Part shown: in pieces, positions 12,331 through 60,000 of the stretch
How the letters are laid out: each line of letters opens with the position of its first letter
How positions within the stretch are numbered: position 1 is the first letter of the stretch
NCBI GenBank assembly: GCA_964016885.1
Contig: OZ024765.1
Span: 12,090,001-12,154,000 of the forward strand
Direction: 5' to 3'
Origin: Eledone cirrhosa
Taxonomy: Eukaryota
DNA length: 64,000 bases
Notes under the pieces: generated by a model
What the model was told of the DNA's origin: nothing
What the model saw: the letters and a program-made list of their open reading frames with translations, nothing else
The model's database searches: none
Translations under genes and position numbers: made by a program

Positions 12331-12779
12331 AGAGAGAGAGATGTGGAGGGTGAGAGAGATGGAGGTGATGACAGTGTTTGGACACATTTATCAATTCTAT
12401 GTTATAGAATATTATTATTATTGACTTTGCCTTTCATCCTTACGGGGGTCGATAAAATAAAGTACCAGTAATGCACTGGGTAATTGCTGGCCTTGTGCCT
12501 AAAGTAGAAACAATTATTATTATGGACATTTGTGTTGAGGTGCACAAGTTTACTGTAAATTCGATTATAACTCTTTCCCATTTATATAGGAGATATGATA
12601 CAGATATCCATTAGACATTGGTCAGTTTGTAACTACAGAAGAAGAGATTGATGAAAGTTTTCAAGAAGTGACTCTGATTGAAACCATATTGTTGTGATGA
12701 TAAATTAACCAGAACTGACCTGATGATTTCATAAGAATGAAACAGTTCTAGTCCTGTAAAAGTAATTTCTATATATAAT

Positions 12780-52358: not shown

Positions 52359-52703
52359 CATCATCATCATCATCATTTCATTTTACGTTCGCTTTTCCCT
52401 GCTTGCTAGGGTGGGACGGGAACTGATTCTGGCTTGATTTCTACAGCTGGATGCCCTTCCTAACACCAATCTCATTTACAGTGAGTGCTGGCTACTTTTT
52501 TGCTGTGGCACCTCCACGACCACTTTACAGTGGAATGATAGGGACCCCAGTCCTTATCATCTCATTTCTACAGCTGAGTAAACTGGAGCAATGTGAAATA
52601 AAGTGTCTTGCTCAAGGAAACAACACATCACCCGGTCTGAGAATTGAACTCACAACCTTTCGATTGCAAGGCCAATGCTCTAACCACTAAGCCATGTGCC
52701 TCC
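52358..52703 (-). mobile_element. Composite SINE (family B)
   Basis: Reverse complement of 46928-47318; further copies at 55693-56036 and 59026-59361. Confidence 0.9.
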
Positions 52704-52924
52704 ATATACATATATACACACACACATATAGCGTCATAATGTCATAATGCAGACAGCCAGACATACAGACAGATATTATAAGGACGCAACCTTATATCTA
52801 TGTATCTATCGAAAAAGAAAGACTAAGAATTATAGAGAGAGATCACTAAAGCGCCTAATGCGGTCCCTAGGGCATTGAAAATTTGAAAATTTTTTTTCTC
52901 AAAACACTCACAGGACCATAAGTA

Positions 52925-53125
52925 TTACATGAGGTCACGGTGCTGTGTCATCGCCTTTGAGAGGTGCAATTGGGTAAGGTCGGCTTTTATCACCTCATCC
53001 CAAATCTTCTTGGGTCTCCCCACTCCGTGGCTGCCATCAACTTCTTGTGCTCTGCACCTTTTTATGCAGCTGTCATCCTTCATACGCATCACATGTCCAT
53101 ACAACACAACCTCCTCTCCTGCATA
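52925..53125 (-). mobile_element. RTE LINE C-terminal fragment (duplicate at 56258-56458)
   Basis: YGHVMRMKDDSCIKRC..VDGSHGVGRPKKIWDEVIKADL. Confidence 0.8.
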
Positions 53126-53587
53126 TAGTATTGTATAGTATTGCATAGTAGTATTGTATAGTATTTTATAGTATTGTATAGTATTGTATTGTATAGTCTT
53201 GCATAGTATAATGTAGTATTGTATAGTATTGTACAATATTGTATAGTGTTGTTAAGTATTTTATAGTATTGTAAAGTGTTGTATAGTATTCTATAATATT
53301 GTATAGTATTGTATAGTATTGTACAGTATTGTATAGTATTGTATAGCTCTCAAACTAGAAAAATACTGATCTCAAATCCCTGATATTCACAGAGAGGATG
53401 ACAAAGGAACTTGACAAGTGGAGAGATGTTGTGCTGAAAAGGACCCATCCAACCCATGCAAGCATGGAAAAACAAACGGAAAAACAATAAATGATGACAA
53501 TGATGATGATACACACATACACACACACATTTATATATAGATATATATATAGTTATTTTTTCCTGGACCTTTCCAACGGAATTACTT

Positions 53588-53639
<52 letters not shown>

Positions 53640-53654
53640 TATATATGTATGTGT

Positions 53655-53992
53655 GTCAATGTACGAGAACGACCAAGCATGGATGAGTTGAAAGAGAACT
53701 GAAGGATAAGTTGTGGTGTGCAGGAGAGAAGACTGTGATTGTATGGACATGTGATGCGCATGGAGGATGACCGCTAGGTAAAGAAGTGCCAAGAAATGCC
53801 AGTAGAAGGAAGACGCAGTAGAGGGAAGCCACGAAAAACACGGACAGAGGTGGTGAGAGCTGACCTCAGATCGCTGATGTTCACGGAAGAGATGAGGAAG
53901 GACCGTGACAAGTGGAGAGATGCTGTGCTGGATAGGACCCATCCCACCCTTGCAAGCAGGAAAAAGCAGACGTAAAATGATGATGATGATGA

Positions 53993-53995
<3 letters not shown>
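53655..53995 (+). mobile_element. RTE LINE 3' end with (TGA)n tail (duplicate at 56988-57328)
   Basis: VQERRL..YGHVMRMEDDR*VKKC..VEGRRSRGKPRKT..EMRKDRDKWR, then cccacccttgcaagcagg..gacgtaaaa(tga)n. Confidence 0.85.
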
Positions 53996-54039
<44 letters not shown>

Positions 54040-54481
54040 CACACACACATATATATATATATATATGTGTATATATACACATATAGGTAGATAGATGGAT
54101 GGATATTTATGTACATATATATTACATTCTAAACAAAGATGTTACATTAATATGATAGCTTATCTGTTTACTGCATGAGAGGACACAGATAATAGGTGGG
54201 CTAGTGTTTACACACACAGACACACACACACACACACTAACCATCCAATCCACACATACATATACGCAAAACAACCAAACCCTTCTTTGTTTTAACTTCA
54301 TAATAAAGAAAGCTAAGAAAAAGAGGTCCTTATGGCTATATATATATATATATACAAACACACACACGTAGTCTTCTTCGAGTAAACAGCATCTGATCCC
54401 TCTTTTTTCTTAATTTCTCACTTGGTTCGTTTATGCTTTGCCGTTCATGTATATTACTATGATACATCCAATGAGGAATAA

Positions 54482-54512
<31 letters not shown>

Positions 54513-54513
54513 C

Positions 54514-54572
<59 letters not shown>

Positions 54573-54587
54573 CATATATATATATAC

Positions 54588-54634
<47 letters not shown>

Positions 54635-54640
54635 TATATG

Positions 54641-54713
<73 letters not shown>

Positions 54714-54717
54714 GTAT

Positions 54718-54763
<46 letters not shown>

Positions 54764-54764
54764 G

Positions 54765-54810
<46 letters not shown>

Positions 54811-54814
54811 CATA

Positions 54815-55284
54815 TATAAAAACAAATAACGAAACGAAATTAAATTTTGTTTCGTTTGTAACTCACTTTTGTATGACTGACGCTTAAACAATTAAGTTAA
54901 AAATGTACATCTACATATGCATACTGAAATACTAGTGTGTATATGAATACACACACGTATACATATGTAGGTGTACCAAGTCTTTCACTGGTCGCTTTAC
55001 AGTGAGCGGCCCAGCTATTCTGTATGTAAACACACAGACAAACCGGTTTTTAGAGTCATACTGGTTTTTCGGGGGAAACACCTTCCCCCTATTCTCCAGA
55101 AAGCCAGACAAGGAATATTGAACTAGTTTCGTTGTTGTTACAACTCATCAGCAATATTTACCTATCTACCGGCCTTTCTGGAGAATTGTAAAAGCACATA
55201 TCGTTATATGCTTTTTCTATGAAAATTAGTAGTGGGCAGACCAATTTGCATAGAGTGTGAGTACGCACCGGTTCAGCGGAGACG

Positions 55285-55287
<3 letters not shown>
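54815..55287 (-). mobile_element. Single diverged monomer of the hammerhead repeat family (duplicate at ~58148-58620)
   Basis: Shares with the 478-bp unit the ctcac..tatgcaaatt.g.ctgc..taattttcata..aaag block, the hammerhead, and the tttaag..catac.aa.agtgag..aaa.gaaa..tttcgttt segment; flanked by (TA)n. Confidence 0.8.
55091..55186 (-). ncRNA. Extended type I hammerhead ribozyme (variant family member)
   Basis: Minus: AATATTG-CTGATGA-GTTG-TAACAA-CAAC-GAAA-CTAG-TT-CAATATT; distal stem ATTCTCCAGAAA/TTTCTGGAGAAT; GUU site between 55121 and 55120. Confidence 0.88.
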
Positions 55288-55315
<28 letters not shown>

Positions 55316-55402
55316 CATATATATATATACATATATATATATATACATATATATATATACATATATATATATACATATATATATATACATATATATATAT
55401 AC

Positions 55403-55475
<73 letters not shown>

Positions 55476-55508
55476 CATATATATATACATATATATATAC
55501 ATATATAC

Positions 55509-55591
<83 letters not shown>

Positions 55592-55618
55592 TATACATAT
55601 ATATATACATATATATAC

Positions 55619-55689
<71 letters not shown>

Positions 55690-56920
55690 TATCATCATTT
55701 CATCATCATTTCATTTTACGTCCGCTTTTTCCTGCTTGCAAGGGTGGGACGGGAACTGATTCTGGCTTGATTTCTACAGCTGGATGCCCTTCCTAACACC
55801 AACCTCATTTACAGTGAGTGCTGGGTGCTTTTTTGACGTGGCACCTCCAGGACCACTTTGCAGTGGAATGATATGGACCCCAAGCCCTATCATCTCATTT
55901 CTACAGCTGAGTAAACTGGAGCAATGTGAAATAAAGTGTCTTGCTCAAGGACACAACACATCACCCGGTCTGAGAATTGAACTCACAACCTTTCGATTGC
56001 AAGGCCAATGCTCTAACCACTAAGCCATGTGCCTCCATATACATATATACACACACACATATAGCGTCATAATGTCATAATGCAGACAGCCAGACATACA
56101 GACAGATATTATAAGGACGCAACCTTATATCTATGTATCTATCGAAAAAGAAAGACTAAGAATTATAGAGAGAGATCACTAAAGCGCCTAATGCGGTCCC
56201 TAGGGCATTGAAAATTTGAAAATTTTTTTTCTCAAAACACTCACAGGACCATAAGTATTACATGAGGTCACGGTGCTGTGTCATCGCCTTTGAGAGGTGC
56301 AATTGGGTAAGGTCGGCTTTTATCACCTCATCCCAAATCTTCTTGGGTCTCCCCACTCCGTGGCTGCCATCAACTTCTTGTGCTCTGCACCTTTTTATGC
56401 AGCTGTCATCCTTCATACGCATCACATGTCCATACAACACAACCTCCTCTCCTGCATATAGTATTGTATAGTATTGCATAGTAGTATTGTATAGTATTTT
56501 ATAGTATTGTATAGTATTGTATTGTATAGTCTTGCATAGTATAATGTAGTATTGTATAGTATTGTACAATATTGTATAGTGTTGTTAAGTATTTTATAGT
56601 ATTGTAAAGTGTTGTATAGTATTCTATAATATTGTATAGTATTGTATAGTATTGTACAGTATTGTATAGTATTGTATAGCTCTCAAACTAGAAAAATACT
56701 GATCTCAAATCCCTGATATTCACAGAGAGGATGACAAAGGAACTTGACAAGTGGAGAGATGTTGTGCTGAAAAGGACCCATCCAACCCATGCAAGCATGG
56801 AAAAACAAACGGAAAAACAATAAATGATGACAATGATGATGATACACACATACACACACACATTTATATATAGATATATATATAGTTATTTTTTCCTGGA
56901 CCTTTCCAACGGAATTACTT

Positions 56921-56972
<52 letters not shown>

Positions 56973-57325
56973 TATATATGTATGTGTGTCAATGTACGAG
57001 AACGACCAAGCATGGATGAGTTGAAAGAGAACTGAAGGATAAGTTGTGGTGTGCAGGAGAGAAGACTGTGATTGTATGGACATGTGATGCGCATGGAGGA
57101 TGACCGCTAGGTAAAGAAGTGCCAAGAAATGCCAGTAGAAGGAAGACGCAGTAGAGGGAAGCCACGAAAAACACGGACAGAGGTGGTGAGAGCTGACCTC
57201 AGATCGCTGATGTTCACGGAAGAGATGAGGAAGGACCGTGACAAGTGGAGAGATGCTGTGCTGGATAGGACCCATCCCACCCTTGCAAGCAGGAAAAAGC
57301 AGACGTAAAATGATGATGATGATGA

Positions 57326-57372
<47 letters not shown>

Positions 57373-57814
57373 CACACACACATATATATATATATATATG
57401 TGTATATATACACATATAGGTAGATAGATGGATGGATATTTATGTACATATATATTACATTCTAAACAAAGATGTTACATTAATATGATAGCTTATCTGT
57501 TTACTGCATGAGAGGACACAGATAATAGGTGGGCTAGTGTTTACACACACAGACACACACACACACACACTAACCATCCAATCCACACATACATATACGC
57601 AAAACAACCAAACCCTTCTTTGTTTTAACTTCATAATAAAGAAAGCTAAGAAAAAGAGGTCCTTATGGCTATATATATATATATATACAAACACACACAC
57701 GTAGTCTTCTTCGAGTAAACAGCATCTGATCCCTCTTTTTTCTTAATTTCTCACTTGGTTCGTTTATGCTTTGCCGTTCATGTATATTACTATGATACAT
57801 CCAATGAGGAATAA

Positions 57815-57845
<31 letters not shown>

Positions 57846-57846
57846 C

Positions 57847-57905
<59 letters not shown>

Positions 57906-57920
57906 CATATATATATATAC

Positions 57921-57967
<47 letters not shown>

Positions 57968-57973
57968 TATATG

Positions 57974-58046
<73 letters not shown>

Positions 58047-58050
58047 GTAT

Positions 58051-58096
<46 letters not shown>

Positions 58097-58097
58097 G

Positions 58098-58143
<46 letters not shown>

Positions 58144-58423
58144 CATATATAAAAACAAATAACGAAACGAAATTAAATTTTGTTTCGTTTGTAACTCACT
58201 TTTGTATGACTGACGCTTAAACAATTAAGTTAAAAATGTACATCTACATATGCATACTGAAATACTAGTGTGTATATGAATACACACACGTATACATATG
58301 TAGGTGTACCAAGTCTTTCACTGGTCGCTTTACAGTGAGCGGCCCAGCTATTCTGTATGTAAACACACAGACAAACCGGTTTTTAGAGTCATACTGGTTT
58401 TTCGGGGGAAACACCTTCCCCCT

Positions 58424-58519
58424 ATTCTCCAGAAAGCCAGACAAGGAATATTGAACTAGTTTCGTTGTTGTTACAACTCATCAGCAATATTTACCTATCT
58501 ACCGGCCTTTCTGGAGAAT
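58424..58519 (-). ncRNA. Extended type I hammerhead ribozyme (duplicate of 55091-55186)
   Basis: Identical sequence at +3333. Confidence 0.88.
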
Positions 58520-58617
58520 TGTAAAAGCACATATCGTTATATGCTTTTTCTATGAAAATTAGTAGTGGGCAGACCAATTTGCATAGAGTGTGAGTACGCA
58601 CCGGTTCAGCGGAGACG

Positions 58618-58648
<31 letters not shown>

Positions 58649-58735
58649 CATATATATATATACATATATATATATATACATATATATATATACATATATA
58701 TATATACATATATATATATACATATATATATATAC

Positions 58736-58808
<73 letters not shown>

Positions 58809-58841
58809 CATATATATATACATATATATATACATATATAC

Positions 58842-58924
<83 letters not shown>

Positions 58925-58951
58925 TATACATATATATATACATATATATAC

Positions 58952-59022
<71 letters not shown>

Positions 59023-60000
59023 TATCATCATTTCATCATCATTTCATTTTACGTCCGCTTTTTCCTGCTTGCAAGGGTGGGACGGGAACTGATTCTGGCT
59101 TGATTTCTACAGCTGGATGCCCTTCCTAACACCAACCTCATTTACAGTGAGTGCTGGGTGCTTTTTTGACGTGGCACCTCCAGGACCACTTTGCAGTGGA
59201 ATGATATGGACCCCAAGCCCTATCATCTCATTTCTACAGCTGAGTAAACTGGAGCAATGTGAAATAAAGTGTCTTGCTCAAGGACACAACACATCACCCG
59301 GTCTGAGAATTGAACTCACAACCTTTCGATTGCAAGGCCAATGCTCTAACCACTAAGCCATCTGCCTGCATAATTATGTCACATAATATTGAATCTATGA
59401 GATTTTGAAAGTATTTATTTTGAGAACAATACCTTAACATCAGTTTGAGTGGCCAGTTACAGCCAGTTTCAACAGAAAGGGGTAGAGAATTCTGGCTGGT
59501 TTTGGCCGGTTTGAACACTAAAGGGTTAATATCCTGCTGAGAGATGCCAACATTGATAACATCGATGAACTGAGAAATGTCATGCTCAACCAAGACCACT
59601 GGAGAAAACGTGCTGAATCTTTACTAGTGTAAACTTGGCCTAAGAAGAAGAATTAATATCATTCTACTCATGACTGATAGTGCCTTCATATTGACATTAT
59701 CTAACAAGAAATGACAGCCACAAATCTATCATATTTCACACAGCAACAATCTTAAATAAAGAATGAGATGGTCATCAATATATTGATTATAAAGTTGTGG
59801 TCAGTTGTCCATCAATTAATCCTTAAAGGCCATTGCCCATAACTCAGTTTCTTGCTCACCCATTGTTGTTAACAGAGACATCAAATATAAGCAATTGATT
59901 TGACAAACATATTCATAAGTTCCTGTTTGTATCTATCAACCCCTCTCTCTCTCACACTCTCTCTCTATCTATCTATCTATCTTTCTGTTCTCCCCTCGCT

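What the first reader, a model, noticed from the sequence alone, without database searches (positions are those of the whole stretch)
54815..55287. A diverged family member gives in-window covariation proof of the ribozyme fold
Seen: an independent ~470-bp monomer on the minus strand keeps CUGAUGA, GAAA, stem III CUAG, loop 2 UAACAA and a GGUA bulge next to stem I. Its helices are rewritten but still pair: stem I AACGGTG/CATCGTT becomes AATATTG/CAATATT, stem II AGC/GCT becomes GTTG/CAAC, and the distal stem GTTCAAC/GTTGAAC becomes ATTCTCCAGAAA/TTTCTGGAGAAT. Inference: structure has been selected across subfamilies, so this is a dispersed mobile family and not a local duplication accident. The conserved loop and bulge are the likely tertiary contact.
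Basis: partly seen in the sequence, partly recalled or inferred. Interest (0 to 1): 0.82.

Follow-up and report, generated by a model that had tools for sequence, protein, structure and literature searches.

The report
Hammerhead retrozyme copy, Penelope-type insertion
This 469-base stretch is one copy of a very abundant, protein-free repeat whose paired sequence changes preserve the fold of a hammerhead (predicted self-cutting) RNA; it belongs to a known class of genome parasites (retrozymes) and was likely pasted into TA repeats by a Penelope-type jumping-gene enzyme, probably from a circular RNA.

Summary
A type I hammerhead sits in a 469-bp unit (54816-55284, minus; family B), homologous outside the core to the 478-bp array unit at 6703-9979 (family A). 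Six helix I/II pairs changed on both sides and all still pair; over 14 representative copies 87% of cells pair (shuffles 68%). Helix I is 6 bp, not 7. Helix III stays palindromic across families, pointing to dimeric cleavage. The copy is not unique: an identical one lies 3,333 bp away in a local duplication. The genome holds 22,495 matching motifs. Of 24 complete two-armed B insertions, 21 end at two fixed sites about 69 nt apart, mostly in (TA)n: the Penelope 'tail' signature. One sister insertion repeats the same A-to-G block in alternate units of both arms, as an edited RNA circle would. A 12-mer shared with host U6 promoters lies upstream of the ribozyme. Verdict: new member of the known non-LTR retrozymes. 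Cleavage, transcription, circularity and the partner enzyme are untested. The scan reported these same features before on other DNA of this genome.

The parts
54816..55284 (-). Family B retrozyme unit, exactly one monomer (unit positions 1-469)
   Evidence: tandem period 466-470 in sister loci
55241..55252 (-). 12-mer shared with host U6 promoters (octamer-like); this copy has one mismatch
55203..55211 (-). TATA-like box, 42 nt after the octamer start (46-48 nt in host U6; spacing read by eye)
   Evidence: function inferred
55174..55186 (-). 5' arm of distal stem extending helix I
55158..55162 (-). 5' strand of the helix I internal loop (GGUAA), facing UCC on the 3' strand; likely partner of loop 2
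   Evidence: contact inferred
55115..55157 (-). Type I hammerhead: helix I 6 bp, CUGAUGA, helix II 4 bp with loop UAACAA, GAAA, palindromic helix III ACUAGU, GUU triplet; predicted cut between 55121 and 55120
55091..55103 (-). 3' arm of distal stem
54885..54890 (-). Family 'short' end site (unit 395-400): second fixed insertion end in sister copies, internal in this copy
   Evidence: 31 of 68 B 3' ends
54816..54859 (-). Terminal hairpin, T5 run and family 'long' end (unit 469)
   Evidence: (33 of 68 B 3' ends)
54478..54815 (.). (TA)n target, downstream flank
55285..55692 (.). (TA)n target, upstream flank
58149..58617 (-). Identical second copy inside an exact tandem duplication (52620-56028 = 55953-59361)
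6703..9979 (+). Family A array: 6.8 units of 478 bp, seven hammerheads (GUA triplet, U.U at base of helix II), 5'-truncated, ending in (TA)n

Best explanation
It is one monomer of an abundant non-coding repeat with a covarying type I hammerhead fold (a non-LTR retrozyme) that is likely transcribed from tandem copies, likely self-cleaved and circularised, and likely inserted into (TA)n by a Penelope-type reverse transcriptase/endonuclease. Shown here: fold conservation, dispersal, tandem and inverted arrays, two fixed ends, TA targets, and one insertion carrying a strand-specific A-to-G block. Inferred: (1) an internal snRNA-type promoter starts transcripts about 55 nt upstream of the cut site; (2) adjacent ribozymes cut as a dimer through the palindromic helix III, helped by the loop-2/internal-loop contact; (3) a host ligase closes monomers or dimers into circles; (4) the Penelope enzyme nicks both target strands and starts copying at two internal sites (unit 469 and about 400), giving two back-to-back arms that run through the cut site. 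This solo copy has one ribozyme and a mismatch in the promoter-like 12-mer, so it is probably a dead end.
For: Covariation in helices I/II and across the unit. Helix III is palindromic in all three family-level states (ACUAGU, ACAUGU, ACGCGU); 36 of 38 non-A/B matches among the 100 listed are palindromic (by eye; 3 of 12 allowed dinucleotides are; many are related). G at the cleavage position in 109 of 22,495 motifs, 86 of the 100 listed in one local array. 21 of 24 complete two-armed B insertions have one long and one short end, none two of the same; 56 of 68 3' ends abut TA-rich DNA. The short ends align between A and B. Young Penelope-type ORFs with the same two-ended TA insertions are abundant. 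Two-site internal initiation on both strands is shown in vitro for a Penelope protein (PMC11167929). G000:C2:95687872-95695158 has the same 21-24 A>G (0-1 T>C) in 6 units of both arms, with U/A 5' neighbours at 25 of 29 sites vs 73 of 118 (p = 0.015). U6-type 12-mer exact in 144 of about 198 A/B/D copy contexts vs 2 hits in 489 kb of other loci, both before a hammerhead.
Against: No RNA data were obtained, so expression, cleavage and circles are unshown. The young B subfamily has U at position 17 (40 of 46 copies), which PMC1636495 treats as disfavoured. Predicted folds never form helix III in the monomer. In vitro the Penelope enzyme prefers uncleaved RNA and does not need the ribozyme (PMC11167929), so fixed ends do not require a circle. 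No partner was identified: the 785-aa family shares no sequence with A/B beyond TA repeats, and end spacings are 118 and about 90 nt for the two families examined vs about 69 for B. The edited block is one locus; 49 other insertions show no A>G excess (57 vs 46, p = 0.20). Host U1/U2 promoters lack the octamer and their matrix does not pick the element. Octamer-to-TATA spacing is 4-5 nt short of U6, T5 runs would stop Pol III, family C lacks the 12-mer (0 of 8), and the motif rests on 3 promoters. In family A only 10 of 14 complete two-armed calls were long/short (alignment ends are noisier).
Confidence: 0.82

Rival explanations
1. Same element and enzyme, but the template is an uncleaved linear multimer read from tandem source loci; circles are a by-product and the ribozyme is dispensable for insertion.
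For: Ribozyme mutants do not impair insertion in vitro and unprocessed RNA is the main substrate (PMC11167929). U17 and the weak helix III could leave multimers uncut. Long arrays show DNA-level higher-order duplication (C1:95.63-95.67 Mb), which can also make alternating units.
Against: The identical edited block recurs in alternate units of both inverted arms, starting at both outer ends, and spans one unit with borders between positions 65 and 199, which bracket the cut site at 164 (about 29% by chance). Cleavage-dead G17 never founded a dispersed subfamily, although its rarity is about that of other point mutants.
Confidence: 0.3
2. The units are solo or tandem pseudo-LTRs shed by an autonomous Penelope element, not a self-sustaining non-autonomous family.
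For: Truncated Penelope insertions leave terminal repeats, and Xenopus retrozymes are sisters of pLTRs (bioRxiv 10.64898/2026.07.22.740005).
Against: In the sampled loci arms run unit into unit and none continues into an ORF. The 785-aa family has a different terminal repeat with a minimal hammerhead-like core, and 19 of 20 loci of the second family show no canonical core downstream of the ORF. At least three further Penelope-type families were seen only as fragments.
Confidence: 0.1
3. A satellite amplified and dispersed only at the DNA level, the hammerhead being a neutral relic.
For: Arrays of at least 83 units with higher-order duplication, and a 47-kb array with a dead triplet, exist.
Against: Compensatory changes, fixed two-site ends and a strand-specific A>G block need selection and copying at the RNA level.
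Confidence: 0.03

Closest known systems
Metazoan non-LTR retrozymes (coral, mussel, axolotl: PMC7229834; vertebrate survey: bioRxiv 10.64898/2026.07.22.740005)
   Same: Non-coding, low-GC tandem and solo units with a canonical type I hammerhead; thousands of copies; co-occurrence with Penelope-like elements; a U.U base of helix II as in axolotl HHR_Amex2 (family A).
   Different: Longer unit (469 bp vs about 170-400 nt RNAs, though within the 51-972 bp survey range). Inverted two-armed insertions with two fixed ends, (TA)n targeting, a U6-type 12-mer and edit marks were not described for retrozymes in the parts I read. Expression and circles are untested here.
Penelope-like elements with C-terminal GIY-YIG endonuclease, and non-autonomous derivatives such as MRC1 (PMC8557442, PMC11167929, PMC4209133)
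   Same: Tandem/inverted insertions, an optional tail between two start sites, (TA)n bias, no discernible target duplication, hammerhead in the repeat.
   Different: No ORF; tail about 69 nt (published 30-40 nt); canonical rather than minimal hammerhead; no sequence tie to the autonomous families examined.
Newt satellite 2 (via PMC6155905 and PMC2220036; the original promoter paper was not held)
   Same: Weak palindromic helix III, internally looped helix I, tandem repeat, internal snRNA-type promoter.
   Different: Satellite 2 is reported as Pol II-driven; here the motif matches host U6 rather than U1/U2 promoters, and nothing was assayed.
Rfam Hammerhead_HH9 (RF02275)
   Same: Whole-model match, same 6-bp helix I, internal loop and A-rich 6-nt loop 2.
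   Different: 38.6 bits, below the 52-bit cut-off; helix III much shorter; sits in a mobile repeat.

Membership tests
Type I hammerhead ribozyme | Conserved core CUGAnGA, GAAA, NUH with helices I-III, helix I open | tested here: met
   H17 is U
Type I hammerhead ribozyme | Helices supported by compensatory changes | tested here: met
   5 of 6 helix I pairs and 3 of 4 helix II pairs with both-sided changes
Type I hammerhead ribozyme | Loop 1 / loop 2 tertiary contact | tested here: inconclusive
   conserved nucleotides at HH9-model positions; no covariation
Type I hammerhead ribozyme | Self-cleavage | not testable with these tools
   needs an in vitro assay
Rfam RF02275 Hammerhead_HH9 | Score at or above 52 bits | tested here: not met
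   38.6 bits; not filed as HH9
Non-LTR retrozyme | Non-coding unit of a few hundred bp, each with a type I hammerhead, in tandem and solo copies, no LTRs | tested here: met
   frames over the unit are microsatellite read-throughs
Non-LTR retrozyme | Dispersed at high copy number | tested here: met
   22,495 motif matches for families A and B together, reversed-pattern control 0
Non-LTR retrozyme | Expressed as linear and circular RNA | not tested
   no reads obtained; only the indirect A>G block at one sister locus
Non-autonomous Penelope-like element | Tandem/inverted insertion with a tail at one end | tested here: met
   21 of 24 complete two-armed B insertions
Non-autonomous Penelope-like element | Microsatellite target bias, no clear target duplication | tested here: met
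   56 of 68 3' ends TA-rich
Non-autonomous Penelope-like element | Terminal similarity to an autonomous partner | tested here: inconclusive
   none to the 785-aa family; second family compared only by end spacing and core search; others unsampled
U6-type (snRNA) internal promoter | Host proximal element plus TATA at host spacing | tested here: inconclusive
   12-mer matches; spacing 42-43 vs 46-48 nt; distal host motif not seen in the unit by eye; no transcription data

The most novel reading that the evidence does not exclude
A self-promoted retrozyme: each unit carries a captured U6-type promoter, cleaves as a dimer, is circularised (also as two-monomer circles), can be ADAR-edited, and is then copied round the circle from two fixed sites by a Penelope dimer into both ends of a (TA)n break, so that RNA edits act as a barcode of rolling-circle retrotransposition in an animal genome.
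Probability: 0.4. Interest if true: 0.72.

Novelty: new member of a known kind. Interest (0 to 1): 0.47.

Why it matters
The class is known, but its life cycle (promoter, role of cleavage, circle as template, which enzyme inserts it) is mostly proposed. This family offers thousands of young insertions with fixed start sites, natural structural variants of the ribozyme, a candidate promoter and an edit-barcoded insertion. With the published in vitro Penelope system these make the circle-versus-linear question directly testable. Nine literature searches listed no cephalopod retrozyme description; subscription papers, Repbase/Dfam and supplements were not seen.

Tried and rejected
Rfam at gathering thresholds: no hit in the window. 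A DNA search of the genome with the family A ribozyme returned nothing, which the tool attributes to skipping very common words; the pattern search found it. Metagenome scan: 104 stretches matched the pattern, none with BLAST similarity to A or B at E 1e-3; many look like unrelated hammerheads of the same core type. U1/U2-type promoter: rejected (no octamer in 30 loci; matrix p 0.06-0.99). 14 further U6 matches lack the proximal 12-mer and look like retrocopies. Family-wide A>G excess: not found outside one array; the raw excess is partly due to that array and to units counted more than once. The 5'-G depletion test alone was not significant (p = 0.11). Pfam found nothing in the 785-aa ORF; its Penelope identity rests on RT and GIY-YIG/CCHH-type motifs read by eye (recalled, and as described in PMC8557442) and on its insertion pattern; clade not tested. 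No Penelope ORF fragment in the window. microRNA matches reflect the TA/CA hairpin and were dismissed. RNA expression remains untested.

Full report
1. Observation. The minus strand at 54816-55284 holds a 469-bp unit between two (TA)n tracts. The ribozyme region folds at z = -3.9 and the unit at z = -10. Rfam has no hit at gathering level, but HH9 matches over its whole model at E 2.4e-8. The comparator is the 478-bp array at 6703-9979 (family A), 62% identical over 269 nt and homologous outside the masked core in the 5' and middle blocks (0 of 500 shuffles reach the score) and weakly in the 3' block. An identical second copy lies at 58149-58617 in an exact 3,409-bp duplication whose borders fall in copies of a tRNA-like repeat; real duplication or assembly artefact is undecided.

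2. Covariation. Between the two window units six standard pairs of helices I and II changed on both sides and all six pair; chance is about 0.02. I aligned 14 real copies chosen to represent families A, B, C and D from 214 distinct ribozyme contexts. 87.1% of cells pair (shuffles 68.3%, 0 of 500), covariation score 0.54 vs 0.20, slid controls at most 0.16; by number of pairs the result is weaker (9 vs 7.1, 49 of 500). Relatedness inflates such counts. Helix I is 6 bp; the seventh pair holds in 5 of 14 and belongs to an internal loop (G-U-A-W facing U-C-C). Across the whole unit 26 of 98 predicted pairs show a both-sided change in an A+B alignment and 7 of 154 within B; the two monomers fold into matching series of helices.

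3. Helix III and cut site. Helix III is two pairs closed by two nucleotides and is not predicted to form in the monomer. Its six bases are palindromic in every family: ACUAGU (A, B), ACAUGU (D and older repeats), ACGCGU (C). Among the 100 matches listed (of 177), 36 of 38 non-A/B motifs are palindromic, against 4 of 62 A/B-type mutants (by eye). Published work links such palindromes to dimeric cleavage in tandem copies (PMC4209133, PMC7229834). Position 17 is U, C or A by subfamily; G occurs in 109 of 22,495 motifs, 86 of the 100 listed in one array. The young B subfamily has U17, a residue PMC1636495 (passages) treats as disfavoured, so this copy may cut slowly.

4. Dispersal and insertion pattern. 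The genome (3.0 Gb; cephalopod-like by inference and by earlier notes) has 22,495 A/B-type motifs, control 0; these are motifs, not insertions. I examined 44 B insertions, one locus each, 19 of them picked as best hits to this copy. 4 were incomplete, 16 one-armed (10 long end, 6 short), 24 two-armed and back to back. Of the 24, 21 have one end at unit 468-469 and the other at 395-401; 3 are exceptions; none has two equal ends. 56 of 68 3' ends abut TA-rich DNA. Family A shows the same at about 478/423 with more noise (10 of 14), and the short sites align between families. This is the Penelope tandem/inverted-plus-tail pattern (PMC8557442, passages), which PMC11167929 (parts 1-2 of 4) traces to two internal start sites and cutting of both strands. 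Two young Penelope-type families with long open frames (785 and 713 aa; at least 150 scored matches each) insert the same way, with ends 118 and about 90 nt apart. Neither was tied to B. The window copy is the only exact 1-469 monomer among the 44; its 5' junction has TAT microhomology with the target.

5. Evidence for an RNA template. At G000:C2:95687872-95695158, a two-armed B insertion of 16 pieces, six units carry the same 21-24 A>G changes (0-1 T>C) on the sense strand at unit positions 200-374. The following unit carries four more at 23-64 in all four cases where one follows, and they also appear once at the arm junction. The block alternates with unchanged monomers, begins at both outer ends, and has an ADAR-like 5' U/A bias (25 of 29 vs 73 of 118, p = 0.015; the ADAR preference is recalled). 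The simplest reading is one edited RNA with a two-monomer period copied into both arms, for example a dimeric circle. It is one locus; irregular extra units show later rearrangement; 49 other insertions show no A>G excess (p = 0.20); long arrays elsewhere grew by DNA-level duplication. An uncleaved multimer from a source that already alternated cannot be excluded.

6. Promoter. An octamer-containing block upstream of the ribozyme is kept in A, B and D even where its hairpin partner is lost (D). Host U1/U2 genes lack it. Three distinct host U6 promoters carry the same 12-mer at about -78 with a TATA box at about -30. It is exact in 144 of about 198 A/B/D contexts, 0 of 8 C, and occurs twice in 489 kb of other loci, both times before a hammerhead. 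Against: spacing 4-5 nt short, T5 runs at unit 382-386 and 463-467, only three promoters, no transcripts. Newt satellite 2 is a precedent for an internal snRNA-type promoter (cited in PMC2220036; original not held). The window copy has an A>G change in the 12-mer.

7. Mechanism, marked. Shown: structure, dispersal, ends, targets, one edited insertion. Inferred: internal promoter (about 0.5), dimeric cleavage (about 0.7), circle as template (about 0.6), Penelope enzyme (about 0.9), partner unknown.

8. Comparison and novelty. It works like, and meets the testable criteria of, a metazoan non-LTR retrozyme (PMC7229834, passages and Discussion; bioRxiv 10.64898/2026.07.22.740005, parts 1-3 of 5, supplements closed; it sampled 35 genomes, whose invertebrates were three insects and a coral). 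Expression and cleavage are untested, and it is below the HH9 cut-off. My nine paper searches listed no cephalopod retrozyme report and one unrelated paper for retrozyme plus ADAR. Earlier notes of this scan describe the same two-armed ends, promoter-like block and edit marks on other DNA of this genome. I had seen the ends and the edited unit before those look-ups; the U6 test followed one of them. Verdict: real, a new member of a known kind, useful as a test bed; interest 0.47.

Noticed in passing
window 52620-59361: Exact 3,409-bp tandem duplication, identical even through impure microsatellites, with borders inside a tRNA-like repeat; very recent recombination or assembly artefact.
   Followed up: partly
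window 9980-10400 and 55700-56050: The family A array and the family B monomer both sit in TA tracts next to the tail of the same tRNA-like short repeat (ARAGORN calls no tRNA).
   Followed up: no
window 12720-12750: Isolated CTGATGA...GAAA motif whose helix II region resembles family C, with no clear helix I; probably a decayed remnant or chance.
   Followed up: no
G000:C2:95687872-95695158 (L398-L399): Same A>G block in alternate units of both arms of one insertion.
   Followed up: yes
G000:C3:12.27-12.32 Mb: Array of at least 86 family A units with a cleavage-dead G at position 17: local DNA-level amplification of an inactive unit.
   Followed up: no
L033:1208-1770: B insertion into a (CAT)n tract with ends at 326 and 395: both differ from the usual pair but are again 69 nt apart.
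   Followed up: no
L123:2554-4908 and L351-L370: Two very abundant young Penelope-type families with long open frames; the first has a minimal hammerhead-like core in its terminal repeat, the second no canonical core downstream of the ORF in 19 of 20 loci.
   Followed up: partly
L321-L350, L371-L373 upstream regions; L149 downstream of a Penelope fragment: Host U1, U2 and U6 genes share a distal pyrimidine-rich 11-mer at about -260 to -290; the same motif occurs in a Penelope 3' region.
   Followed up: no
L006, L011, L101, L130, L132, L138, L139, L370: Another abundant motif with hammerhead core pieces and a 6-bp helix II but no standard helix I or III; may be the re-ordered hammerhead noted by earlier reports.
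   Followed up: no
L187-L290 (metagenome contigs): Many contigs carry unrelated hammerhead-like motifs with the same palindromic helix III.
   Followed up: partly
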